Shown here: piece after piece, positions 18,617 through 56,712 of the stretch
How positions within the stretch are numbered: position 1 is the first letter of the stretch
Layout: each line of letters starts with the position of its first letter
Source of the DNA: the human T2T-CHM13v2.0 reference genome, Homo sapiens
Reading direction: 5' to 3' (one strand)
Length of the DNA stretch: 64,000 nt
Assembly: GCF_009914755.1 (NCBI RefSeq)
Contig: NC_060926.1
Made by a program: the position numbers and the translations under genes
The notes under the pieces: model-generated
Databases searched by the model: none
Seen by the model: only the letters and a program-made list of their open reading frames with translations
Told to the model about the DNA's origin: nothing

Positions 18617-21612
<2,996 letters not shown>

Positions 21613-25399: not shown

Positions 25400-26060
25400 T
25401 GCCCACCATAAATAACTATTTAAGAATGCACAAACTTCATTGAACAACTAATTTCAGACATGGTGCAACAGGTAGCACAGAACTATGATCCCCAAAGGAA
25501 AGAAAACAAATGAATTTAGTCCTGTGATTGCTCCGGTTTACTGCCTGGAGAGAGTTTCCAGGCCACCGTGCAGGGACAGCAAAAGCAAACAGAGCCCCCA
25601 CTGAGTGGAGGAGATGGAGATTGGCACCCTGGGAGGCACAGGTGGCTAGAATTTACAGGCAAAGTATAGGAAATAAAGTTGCCGAACAGAGAGAGAATAA
25701 TGCCTCAGTGACCTGTGGGATATCAGTCTAAGATGCACGTAATTGAAGTCAGAGAAAAAAGGGAGACATAAAATATTTGAAGGAATGATGGCCAAAAGTT
25801 TTCTAAATTTGGTAAAAACTATAAGCCCATGGATATAGGAGACTCAACAAATCTGAAACAGAATAAACTTCGTAAAACCATACTAAAATATATCATGACC
25901 AATTGCTCACACATCCTTATAAAGTCTTAAAAACAGCTATTGGGAAAAAGATACATTATATACAGATAAGAATTTCAACAGACTTCTTTTCCAAAACTAC
26001 ATAAGCCAGAACAATGGAACATCTTTAAAGTGCTAAAAGAAAAAAACTGTCAACCATAAA
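25400..26060 (+). mobile_element. Ancient L1M 5'/ORF1 fragment
   Basis: aaatatttgaaggaatgatggccaaaagttttctaaattt and aaaaactgtcaacc ORF1-like motifs. Confidence 0.55.
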
Positions 26061-26422
26061 TGTTCCGTGGTGAGCGAGTCTATGCAAACTTAACCCCAAA
26101 GCCCAGGAAGCTGAGAGGTGAAAGAAGAAGGCTGACATATCCGGCTTATCAGAAAGAAATATTTAAGGGGGACTTACAAACAGAAGTGATATCCTTTGGC
26201 AGCCATGAGAAGGGATAGTGGATCCCTGAGCCCTTATCCCCCAGGTCCAGGGATTACATACCACAGGGAAGGAATGTGTAACAATTGAAATCAACCCCTC
26301 AGAGAGAGGCAAGAATGAACAGTAGAAAAAGTAGAAATCTCAGAGGCATTCCCAGAACAAGGGTTAATCAGAAGTCAGTATGGTAGAGTAGCGTCCAAGA
26401 TGGAGTTGCTTTATCATCTACA
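26061..26422. mobile_element. ERV LTR fragment (family unresolved)
   Basis: TG start, LTR-like composition, ccaagatggagt motif. Confidence 0.45.
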
Positions 26423-26424
26423 CC

Positions 26425-26866
26425 TGTGGAGGAAAAGTTAAATATTAAATTTGAACTCAATTGAACATGGACACAAACAATGGTCACCAAGTCCTAGAAC
26501 AGGTTGTGTGAGCCCCTTGAGGCATTCATCCAGTGCTGTTTCAGAGAAATATCTATTTCAATCTGTTCCTAGTTATTGAAAAACAATAGACAATCGTAAA
26601 ACCAAGTTGACCTTTTTGTGTTCCTTGAGCCCAGTCATGAAGGGCCCTCATGACTTGTTATAAAAAGAGCTAGGGTCTCAGACCGTGCCTTAGCTTCATG
26701 AGACCTCTCCTCATCTGTGCATGGATGAGTGGCCGACTTTGGAGCCCAGGCTGTTACTTCCTGGTCTGGTGGTGAATCCTCCATAGTCTGGTGAGTGCAG
26801 TGTCCAACTCTGGGGCCCAGGCTGTTGCTTCTCAGTCTGGCAATGAATCCTCCATAGTCTGGTGAG

Positions 26867-26899
<33 letters not shown>

Positions 26900-27070
26900 C
26901 ATTTCCCTTCTCCCCTTCCCATTGCAATTTGCTTATTATATCAATTTGCTTATTATATCATTTGCTTATTATATCTGCATTGCCATTTATATGGGATAAA
27001 GGTTATTTACCATTAAAGGTATTGTGCATGTGTCTTTTCTTCTCCCCTCACGTGTTTCCCACACAGAACA
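26425..27070 (+). mobile_element. Solo LTR (LTR18B/LTR14C-like, family and strand tentative)
   Basis: TG...CA ends, exact 5-bp TSD acacc at 26420-26424 and 27071-27075, internal direct repeats. Confidence 0.85.
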
Positions 27071-27079
27071 ACACCAAAT

Positions 27080-28362: not shown

Positions 28363-28550
28363 GTGGGGTGTGGGTTTGCTGGTACTTGTGGGGGCAGGTG
28401 AAGAACTTGAGCATATCACCCAACCCTTCAGGGATTTCCCTTCCCATTCCCAACAGCTCAGAGGAAGAGAACGGGAGACAAAGGACCTGGTGATTAGACC
28501 CCCAAGACACTGGGCTGTCTGCTTGTGTCTCAGGTGGAACAGGCCCAGCG
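28363..28550 (+). repeat. Direct duplication copy 1 (~188 bp)
   Basis: Near-identical to 29858-30046. Confidence 0.97.
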
Positions 28551-29408
28551 GGAAAGGGGTTGGGGCACAGAAATAAGGGGTTTGGGTGCAGAGATAAGAG
28601 GTCATGGGGTGGAAATAAGGGATAGGGGCACAGAGATAAGAGGTCAGGGGGTGGAAATAAGGGATCGGGGCACAGAGATAAGAGGTCGGGGCGTGGAAAT
28701 AAGGGATCAGGGCACAGAGATAAGAGGTTGGGGTTCCTGCCCCTCCCCCAGAAAAGCAGGACTTGCCACTAAGGGTGAAGGAGAAGGGGTTGAGGGGTTC
28801 TTGTCCTTCTTCTAGAAAAGCGGGACTTGCCGCTAAGGGTGAAGGAGAAGGGGTTGAGGGGTTCTTGCCCCTCTCCTAGAAAAGCAGAGAAGGGGTAGAG
28901 ACAAGGAGAGAAGGGGTTTGGGGTACTTGGCCCTCCCCCAGAAAAGCAGGACTTGCCGCTAAGGGTGAAGGACTAAGGCAGGCGTCCCTGCGTGGTCTGA
29001 CACCTCTGAAACGTGGGTGAATAATCAGAGAGGCGTCCTTGCGATGATTAAACACCAAGGGAAGGCTGCCTTCCTAGTCCGTGACGGGCGCCGGAGTTTT
29101 GGGTCCACGGATAAAACGTGTCTCCTTTGTCTCTACTAGAAAATGAAAGGAACTGAAATTAAGAGAAGGGAGAGATTGAAGTGTGGCGCTAAGATTGAAA
29201 GGAGAAAGAGGTTGAGGGATAGTGAGAGAGGTTGGAGAAGAGACTGAGAAGAGGCCGCTTACCTGATTTAAAATTGGTGAGATGTTCCTTGGGCTGGTGG
29301 GTCTGAGGACTTGAGGTCGTAGGTGGATCTTTTTCACGGAGCAGAGAGCAGGAGGACAGGGGATTGATCTTCTAAGGGAGATCCTTCGATCCAGGTCACG
29401 GCACCAAA
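28551..29408 (-). mobile_element. HERV-H internal leader/pre-gag region, 3'-truncated
   Basis: tRNA-His-like PBS (TGGTGCCGTGACCTGGAT, 29389-29406), major splice donor cag|gtaagc at 29263/29262, ~39-bp tandem repeats at 28556-28735. Confidence 0.93.
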
Positions 29409-29857
29409 TTTTATGTGCGTCCGTGTGAAGAGACCAGTAAACAGGCTTTGTGTGAGCAATAAAGCTTTTAATCACCTAGGTGCAGGTGGGCTGAGTCTGA
29501 AAAAAGAGTCAGCAAAAAGAGATAAAGGTAAGGCAGTTTTATAAGATTTAAGTAAGTAAAGGAAAATTACAATCAAAGAGGTTGTTCTCTGACGGGCAGG
29601 AGTAAAAGTCACAAGGTGCTCAGTAGAGGAGCTTTTGAAGCCAGGATAAGCCAGGAAAAAGACTTTCACAAAGTCATGTCATCACTTAAGACAAGGACTA
29701 GCCATTTTCACTTCTTTTGTAGTAGAATGTCATCAGTTAAGGCAAGGCAAAGTATTTTCACTTCTTTTGTGATTCTTCAGTTACTTCAGGCCATCTAGGC
29801 ATATACGTGCAAGTCACAAAAAATGTGATGGCTTGGCTTAGGCTCAGAGGCCTGACA
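29409..29857 (-). mobile_element. LTR7 (5' LTR of HERV-H), hypermutated
   Basis: Starts TGTCAGGCCTCTGAGCC on the minus strand, has a TATAAAA box and abuts the PBS. Confidence 0.95.
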
Positions 29858-30046
29858 GTGGGTGTGTGTGTTTGCTGGTACTTGTGGGGGCAGGTGAAGA
29901 ACTTGAGCATATCACCCAACCCTACAGGGATTTCCCTTCCCATTCCCAACAGCTCAGAGGAAGAGAATGGGAGACAAAGGACCTGGTGATTAGACCCCCA
30001 AGACACTGGGCTGTCTGCTTGTGTCTCGGGTGGAACAGGCCCAGCG
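29858..30046 (+). repeat. Direct duplication copy 2 (~189 bp)
   Basis: Near-identical to 28363-28550. Confidence 0.97.

Positions 30047-50810: not shown

Positions 50811-56712
<5,902 letters not shown>

What the first reader, a model, noticed from the sequence alone, without database searches (positions are those of the whole stretch)
28363..30046. One-ended HERV-H insertion flanked by a ~188-bp direct duplication
Seen: the element has only a 5' LTR, PBS and ~860 bp of leader. The LTR end is precise (TG at 29857), the other end is broken, and both sides carry a near-identical ~188-bp host block (28363-28550 and 29858-30046) with only a handful of differences. Established: HERV-H normally makes ~5-bp TSDs and has two LTRs or a solo LTR; experimentally, retroviral DNA with one defective end integrates with large host duplications. 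Inference: a germline fossil of single-end integration completed by host repair. The repeats also allow precise loss of the insert by recombination.
Basis: partly seen in the sequence, partly recalled or inferred. Interest (0 to 1): 0.75.

Follow-up and report, generated by a model that had tools for sequence, protein, structure and literature searches.

The report
APOBEC-scarred, one-ended HERV-H insertion
A 1.3-kb fragment of an ancient human retrovirus (HERV-H) lies between two copies of a 188-base host stretch and carries clustered C-to-T changes on one DNA strand in its first part and on the other strand in the rest; it is likely a half-finished viral DNA, edited by the antiviral enzyme APOBEC3G, that was inserted by one end and patched in by host repair.

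Summary
In detail: a minus-strand HERV-H piece (5' LTR, PBS, ~840 nt of leader; 28551-29857) lies between two copies of a 188/189-bp host block found nowhere else in the genome search (4 substitutions, 1 indel). The U3 end is exact; the other end joins host DNA through a 3-4-nt microhomology. This architecture and the one-ended-integration reading are already in print for HERV-K(HML-2) loci, so that part is not new. U3 has CC>CT on the proviral plus strand at 29 of 53 sites (CCC 18 of 21); U5 and leader have the classic GG>AG at 12 of 39; 29 other HERV-H copies show 2% for both; the host block shows none. Best reading (about 0.6): reverse transcription stalled around plus-strand transfer, both strands were deaminated, integrase joined the U3 end and host repair joined the unfinished end 188 bp away. 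The HML-2 locus with the longest duplication (21q21.1, 450 bp) is also GG>AG-edited and 3'-truncated, but lacks U3 editing. No second HERV-H case was found; ape orthologues could not be checked.

The parts
28363..28550 (+). Left copy of the duplicated host block (188 nt); the copy likely made by host repair
   Evidence: unique apart from the right copy
28547..28550 (-). Microhomology at the broken end: 4 nt (CGCT on the proviral strand) shared by the host block end and the HERV-H leader; 6 of 7 with one mismatch
   Evidence: of 24 control loci readable here 14 have the last 3 of these bases and 2 all 4 at the matching site, the others differ as CpG decay would give
28551..29388 (-). Truncated HERV-H leader with its 64-nt and 21/42-nt tandem arrays and splice-donor-like site (29258-29263); carries GG>AG edits (minus-strand deamination)
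29389..29406 (-). Primer-binding site of HERV-H type (tRNA-His, family assignment recalled); a two-base variant seen in 0 of 26 readable controls
29409..29507 (-). R and U5 of the 5' LTR (boundaries inferred from TATA at 29539-29543 and ATTAAA at 29467-29472); polarity of editing switches here: last CC>CT at LTR position 380, first GG>AG at 420; one G>A change in the last bases of U5 shared by 0 of 26 readable controls
29508..29857 (-). U3 of the 5' LTR (LTR7 type, subfamily name recalled) with plus-strand CC>CT hypermutation, 29 of 53 sites; exact TG start at 29857
29858..30046 (+). Right copy of the host block (189 nt), joined directly to the processed U3 end; likely the original target DNA

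Best explanation
The element is a HERV-H 5' LTR plus leader with APOBEC3G-type changes on both strands and a 188-bp flanking duplication, and is likely an unfinished reverse transcript that integrase inserted by its U3 end and host repair joined at the other end. Shown: exact U3 junction without the two extra bases that precede 3' LTRs; CC>CT on the plus strand confined to U3/R; GG>AG from U5 through the leader; no such edits in the host block; microhomology at the broken end. Inferred steps: (1) APOBEC3G, packaged or met during reverse transcription, deaminated the minus strand (U5, leader); (2) plus-strand strong-stop DNA lost its template or was displaced and stayed single-stranded around the second strand transfer, so U3, which is copied last, was deaminated too; (3) plus-strand synthesis ended ~860 nt past the LTR, or the uracil-rich remainder was degraded; (4) the minus strand was completed over U3, integrase joined that one end at 29857/29858; (5) the free plus-strand 3' end paired with host DNA 188 bp away and primed host synthesis, duplicating the block. 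The edited promoter is predicted to be weak or silent.
For: U3 CC>CT 29/53 (CCC 18/21) against other C 6/57 (P=6e-7) and against 4/96 in U5+leader (P=2e-12); U5+leader GG>AG 12/39 against other G 4/69 (P=0.001); 29 control HERV-H pooled 32/1528 and 25/1120. Pairwise against each of 37 other copies the U3 shows 22-31 CC>CT and 0-3 in reverse, including its nearest lineage-mates. Host block: 0 differences at 17 CC and 20 GG non-CpG sites, so the editing did not happen to the chromosome. GG context is the APOBEC3G signature (PMC4117599, passages); strand-biased editing implies a pre-integration event (PMC2041998, passages). 3' LTRs of controls are preceded by AA, absent at this junction. Experimental one-ended proviruses have one normal end, a truncated end with short homology and duplications of hundreds of bp (PMC5041404). 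APOBEC3G gives aberrant U5 ends and defects in plus-strand transfer and integration in HIV-1 (PMC3509687, passages citing Mbisa 2007). Parallel: chr21 HML-2 has a 450/450 duplication, exact U3 end, 3' LTR cut after 257 bp and gag GG>AG 9/37 vs CC>CT 1/51.
Against: Single case. Three HML-2 long-duplication loci show no plus-strand U3 editing (0 of 3), and the 6p25.2 locus shows no GG>AG in the U3 part that could be compared. No second heavily edited HERV-H was found. The chr21 broken end has no microhomology. A 3-4-nt microhomology is weak and the exact parent base is uncertain. In the standard circular model U3 plus strand stays paired (PMC4488724 says only the minus strand is single-stranded), so step 2 needs an unusual intermediate. 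Editing and truncation could be independent events. Up to 6 of the 29 U3 sites are shared with 3-7 of 37 other copies and may be lineage variants. Block age has a wide interval (0.6-5.4%).
Confidence: 0.6

Rival explanations
1. A full-length, APOBEC3G-edited HERV-H integrated normally with a 5-bp duplication; later a repair event between the filled and the empty allele replaced most of the provirus and copied 188 bp of host DNA.
For: Hypermutated full-length proviruses do integrate (PMC7007669, PMC2041998, passages); microhomology junctions also arise in ordinary template switching; the editing by itself does not date the truncation.
Against: Needs a second rare event whose host breakpoint falls within 188 bp of the insertion; block divergence 4/188 is close to HERV-H LTR-LTR divergence 13/454 and 21/446, so the duplication is old; the same geometry recurs at human-specific chr21 HML-2 with 0/450 differences.
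Confidence: 0.2
2. One-ended integration of a full-length cDNA whose U5 end was a poor integrase substrate (edited terminus or an APOBEC3G-caused extension); host nucleases then trimmed more than 4 kb before the microhomology join. Same outcome, but the truncation is the host's, not a stalled reverse transcriptase.
For: A G>A change lies in the last bases of U5, which both LTRs would share (0 of 26 readable controls); PMC5041404 says the aberrant end is often truncated by host factors; PMC3509687 reports aberrant U5 ends with APOBEC3G.
Against: Control proviruses have LTRs 4-6 kb apart (rows), so trimming would be very long; it does not explain why U3 was single-stranded long enough for 55% editing.
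Confidence: 0.12
3. Pseudo-target duplication: the 188-bp block was duplicated first, HERV-H inserted next to one copy and a deletion removed the rest (the alternative model of PMC5488345 for 6p25.2).
For: The window lies in the duplication-rich NPHP1 region (hub annotation); proposed in print for a similar HML-2 locus.
Against: Both flanks are single-copy here; the duplicated block begins exactly at the LTR's first base and ends exactly at the broken end, which a prior duplication would not predict.
Confidence: 0.05
4. LINE-1-mediated retrotransposition of a HERV-H transcript with an unusually long target duplication.
For: LINE-1 makes variable-length duplications (general knowledge).
Against: The piece starts at the first base of U3, which no sense transcript contains, and has no poly(A) at either end.
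Confidence: 0.01

Closest known systems
HERV-K(HML-2) 21q21.1 (K60, ERVK-23)
   Same: Exact U3 end, 3'-truncated, 450-bp flanking duplication (PMC5488345 Table 2; PMC4422153; confirmed); APOBEC3G-hypermutated (PMC4379556, PMC7007669 passages; gag GG>AG 9/37).
   Different: Nearly full length, cut inside the 3' LTR; no plus-strand C>T in its 5' U3; no microhomology at the broken end; human-specific. None of the passages or term searches in PMC5488345 and PMC4422153 link its duplication to APOBEC (0 occurrences).
HERV-K(HML-2) 6p25.2 truncated provirus
   Different: Other family; LTR itself is cut after ~364 bp; no editing signature in the comparable U3 part.
Experimental aberrant (one-ended) integrations of ASLV/RSV and HIV-1 (Hughes laboratory)
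   Same: One integrase-made junction, one host-made junction with truncation, short homology and a duplication of hundreds of bp (PMC5041404, Discussion and passages).
   Different: Caused there by mutated ends, integrase inhibitors or weak integrase, in cultured cells; not tied to APOBEC3G editing in the text read; here a germ-line fossil.
APOBEC3-edited endogenous retroviruses (HML-2 3q21.2 and 21q21.1; murine Pmv4, Mpmv5; genome-wide screen PMC4866542)
   Same: GG>AG excess with strand bias, set before integration.
   Different: Those show G>A only; C>T is used as the negative control and filtered out (PMC4866542, PMC2041998, PMC4117599 passages). Rare C>T in 5' U3 and PBS of vif-less HIV-1 was reported by Yu et al. 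2004 (recalled; paper not held); here it reaches 55% of CC sites.

Membership tests
HERV-H (LTR7-type) element | LTR and leader homologous to HERV-H copies, TG start, TATA, poly(A) signal, PBS | tested here: met
   80-89% to 39 genomic copies over LTR+leader; landmarks. The names HERV-H/LTR7/tRNA-His are recalled; no repeat library was available.
Normally integrated HERV-H provirus or solo LTR | Two LTRs or one LTR alone, flanked by a 5-bp target duplication | tested here: not met
   One LTR plus leader, 188-bp duplication; three controls have 5-bp duplications.
One-ended (aberrant) retroviral integration | One exact, processed LTR-host junction | tested here: met
   Junction at 29857/29858 starts with TG and lacks the AA that precedes control 3' LTRs.
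One-ended (aberrant) retroviral integration | Second end truncated, with short homology to the appended host DNA | tested here: met
   3-4 nt homology, 6 of 7 with a mismatch; short enough that chance is not excluded.
One-ended (aberrant) retroviral integration | Duplication made at insertion (empty site has one copy; no longer provirus in orthologues) | not testable with these tools
   No primate genomes held; only indirect support from divergence and single-copy flanks.
APOBEC3G-hypermutated provirus | Excess G>A in GG context on the plus strand | tested here: met
   12/39 vs other G 4/69 and controls 25/1120.
APOBEC3G-hypermutated provirus | Strand bias: G>A without matching C>T | tested here: not met
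   Met in U5+leader (CC>CT 4/96) but reversed in U3 (CC>CT 29/53, GG>AG 0/5); this is the variant feature.
APOBEC3G-hypermutated provirus | Edits confined to viral DNA (pre-integration) | tested here: met
   0 differences between host-block copies at 37 non-CpG CC/GG sites.
LINE-1-retroposed ERV copy | Starts in R, ends in poly(A) | tested here: not met
   Full U3, no poly(A).

The most novel reading that the evidence does not exclude
APOBEC3G does not only destroy retroviral DNA: by stalling it at plus-strand transfer it diverts some copies into one-ended, host-repaired germ-line insertions with long duplications. This locus is a frozen second-strand-transfer intermediate, edited on both strands, and it and HML-2 21q21.1 are members of a class that editing screens miss because they discard C>T clusters as noise.
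Probability: 0.35. Interest if true: 0.8.

Novelty: new variant of a known kind. Interest (0 to 1): 0.6.

Why it matters
It gives a natural record of a reverse-transcription step that is hard to see: heavy plus-strand deamination of 5' U3 next to classic minus-strand editing on one molecule. It ties a restriction factor to aberrant integration, offering a cause for the long 'target duplications' of some endogenous retroviruses that the papers read leave open. It also shows that C>T clusters are not a clean negative control in ERV editing screens and that 5'-LTR-only edits could inflate LTR-LTR ages. The claim is directly testable by a genome-wide scan and by existing provirus-plus-junction sequencing. 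No function for the host is claimed; the nearest gene (MTLN) starts 5 kb away on the other strand.

Tried and rejected
Paralogous empty or full site in the NPHP1 duplications: none found. Lineage variants as the source of the U3 T's: rejected, the excess holds against all 37 comparators, 23 of 29 sites are shared with at most 2 of 37, and the best other U3 among 40 scored of 1871 candidates is 87%. Deamination of the chromosome during repair: rejected, host block clean. Search for a second HERV-H with plus-strand U3 editing: 756 sites match a relaxed U3 motif, 2 carry both hotspot changes, and the other one has only 2/53; a second motif gave only this locus; a third gave 6 others, all fetched, 3-9 of 52-53 sites with many unrelated differences. 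Search for leader-edited HERV-H: 1 hit (self) strict, 33 relaxed; the 2 most changed of the 32 others were fetched and show 4/38 and 3/38; their 3' ends were not read. These exact-motif screens miss copies with other changes. Plus-strand U3 editing at HML-2 long-duplication loci: 0 of 3; 5 further loci of the published table were not fetched. The internal remnant of 6p25.2 matched none of 5 comparators. G-run motifs lie on the template strand at the break but belong to the family's normal arrays; not used as evidence. One TSD print (chr1) picked a wrong site; one search shows the 5-bp match. Prior art for this locus: not found in 10 full-text searches nor in one of two supplements of PMC4866542 (file 2, cut when stored; file 1 not searched; the hg19 place searched for was my estimate). 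Yu 2004, Lee 2008, Mbisa 2007, Oh 2006 and Varadarajan 2013 were not held and may bear on novelty.

Full report
1. Observation. The window holds a direct repeat at 28363-28550 and 29858-30046, differing by 4 substitutions and 1 indel; two substitutions are at CpG, one substitution and the indel lie in the GT-rich start. The block with its right flank matched only these two places in the genome and the left flank only itself. Between the copies, on the minus strand, lies a 1307-nt piece that matches 39 other loci over LTR and leader at 80-89% (40 of 3106 candidates scored). It begins with TG at 29857, as do 26 of 29 fetched relatives, and holds TATA, ATTAAA, PBS and a splice-donor-like site and the leader's tandem arrays. 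The names HERV-H, LTR7 and tRNA-His PBS are recalled. There is no second LTR and no poly(A). Three control loci have 5-bp target duplications.

2. The ends. Control 3' LTRs are preceded by AA; the junction at 29857/29858 has none, as integrase processing would leave it. At the other end the sequence breaks at the last unit of the 21-nt array. The 4 nt at 28547-28550 fit both the host block end and the viral continuation: of 24 controls readable there, 14 share the last three bases and 2 all four, the rest differing as CpG decay would give. The polarity is that of a target duplication stretched from 5 to 188 bp.

3. Against 29 other HERV-H copies the element has two opposite mutation clusters. 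In U3 (LTR positions 1-350) the proviral plus strand has CC>CT at 29 of 53 non-CpG sites, 18 of 21 in CCC, against 6 of 57 at other C (P=6e-7) and GG>AG 0 of 5. From U5 on it has GG>AG at 12 of 39 sites against 4 of 69 at other G (P=0.001) and CC>CT 4 of 96. The last CC>CT in the LTR is at position 380, the first GG>AG at 420. Controls pooled: 32 of 1528 and 25 of 1120; per control 0-6 and 0-3. Pairwise against each of 37 copies the U3 shows 22-31 CC>CT and 0-3 in reverse. 23 of the 29 sites are shared with at most 2 of 37 copies; up to 6 may be lineage variants. The best other U3 is 87% identical (40 of 1871 scored). The host block shows no difference at 17 CC and 20 GG non-CpG sites, so the deamination hit viral DNA before it was in the chromosome. 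The CC/GG context is that of APOBEC3G (PMC4117599, passages).

4. Mechanism. Shown: the junctions, the two editing polarities, their confinement to viral DNA. Inferred: minus-strand DNA was edited in U5 and leader as usual. The plus-strand strong-stop DNA was single-stranded around the second strand transfer; U3 is displaced first and copied last, so it took the edits. Plus-strand synthesis ended about 860 nt past the LTR or the rest was lost. The minus strand was completed over U3, integrase joined that end, and the free plus-strand 3' end primed on host DNA 188 bp away, which duplicates the block, as modelled in PMC5041404 (Discussion read whole). APOBEC3G is reported to give aberrant U5 ends and defects in plus-strand transfer and integration in HIV-1 (PMC3509687 and PMC7760323, passages citing Mbisa 2007, itself not held). 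Rare C>T in 5' U3 and PBS was reported for vif-less HIV-1 by Yu et al. 2004 (recalled; not held), whereas PMC4488724 (passages) states that only the minus strand is single-stranded. Block divergence, 4 of 188 (95% interval 0.6-5.4%), is of the order of two HERV-H LTR pairs (13 of 454, 21 of 446): old, but not proof of insertion-time origin. I put APOBEC3G-type editing during reverse transcription at about 0.9, duplication at insertion at about 0.7, and the whole chain at 0.6.

5. Comparison with what is known. PMC5488345 (parts 1-3 of 4 read) lists eight HML-2 sites with duplications over 10 bp, including a truncated one-LTR element at 6p25.2 (111 bp, with an empty allele at 0.435) and 21q21.1 (450 bp). 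PMC4422153 (passages) already attributes such repeats to inefficient integration as in the RSV experiments. So architecture and first reading are known in kind. Neither text contains 'APOBEC'. Yet 21q21.1 is one of the two HML-2 proviruses reported as APOBEC3G-hypermutated (PMC4379556, PMC7007669, passages). I checked it: 450 of 450 identical duplication, exact U3 end, 3' LTR cut after 257 bp, no microhomology; gag GG>AG 9 of 37, CC>CT 1 of 51. Against generality: 0 of 3 HML-2 long-duplication loci show plus-strand U3 editing. Editing screens treat C>T as the negative control (PMC4866542, PMC2041998, PMC4117599, passages), so this U3 would be filtered out. PMC12228294 (passages) discusses HERVH as a regulator of APOBEC3 genes, not as a target.

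6. Search for a second case. Of 756 sites matching a relaxed U3 motif, 2 carry both hotspot changes; the other, a chr1 5' LTR, has 2 of 53. Two more motifs gave this locus alone or 6 others with 3-9 of 52-53 and many unrelated differences. Leader motifs gave this locus alone or 33 hits; the two most changed others have 4 of 38 and 3 of 38. Exact motifs miss diverged copies, so this shows rarity, not uniqueness.

7. Rivals. Normal integration with later rearrangement (0.2); one-ended integration of a full-length cDNA with a bad U5 end and long host trimming (0.12; a G>A lies in the last bases of U5, 0 of 26 readable controls); prior duplication (0.05); LINE-1 retroposition (0.01). Primate orthologues and human variation could not be read here.

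8. Verdict. Real; a new variant of a known kind. The one-ended insertion with a long duplication has HML-2 precedents; I found no report of this locus or of heavy plus-strand U3 editing in an endogenous retrovirus in ten full-text searches, with five key papers not held and one supplement of PMC4866542 unsearched. Interest 0.6; the wider claim that APOBEC3G channels cDNAs into one-ended germ-line insertions has probability about 0.35 and would deserve 0.8.

Noticed in passing
L036:4308-4309 (G000:C21 near 16,928,309): The 5' LTR of the hypermutated HML-2 at 21q21.1 runs straight into gag-like sequence; PBS and leader are missing, which could itself record a faulty plus-strand transfer.
   Followed up: partly
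L037:2398-2965 (G000:C4 near 164,011,100): The HML-2 at 4q32.1 ends in a perfect 284-bp tandem duplication, each unit holding an inverted 78-nt piece of the U3 start; looks like another aberrant end rather than a plain target duplication.
   Followed up: no
L042:4588-5527 (G000:C6 near 2,923,600): 6p25.2 HML-2: 113-bp duplication around ~364 nt of U3 plus ~350 nt that matched none of five HML-2 pieces held.
   Followed up: partly
window 29389-29406: The PBS differs from the commonest form by two adjacent bases, a variant seen in 0 of 26 readable controls; unexplained (other tRNA variant, editing or decay).
   Followed up: no
L002-L030, U5 ends: 25 of 26 readable control HERV-H 5' LTRs end in AAA rather than the canonical CA, yet make normal 5-bp duplications.
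   Followed up: no
L034 and L044 (G000:C1 near 54,903,600): A complete HERV-H whose 5' LTR alone has C>T at both CCA hotspots near the TATA box; too few changes to call editing.
   Followed up: partly
L051 (G000:C3 near 147,859,450): HERV-H whose 5' LTR lacks the first ~165 nt of U3, with mild GG>AG (4 of 38) in the leader; 3' end not read.
   Followed up: partly
window 26059-27072: LTR-like repeat(s), apparently nested, with a 70-nt internal direct repeat (26728-26868) and a TA microsatellite, 1.3 kb from the finding; family not identified.
   Followed up: no
window 18618-19802 and 52372-53556: Inverted 1.2-kb arms at 88%, with further arms nearby, likely LINE-1 copies on either side of MTLN and the NPHP1 start.
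   Followed up: no
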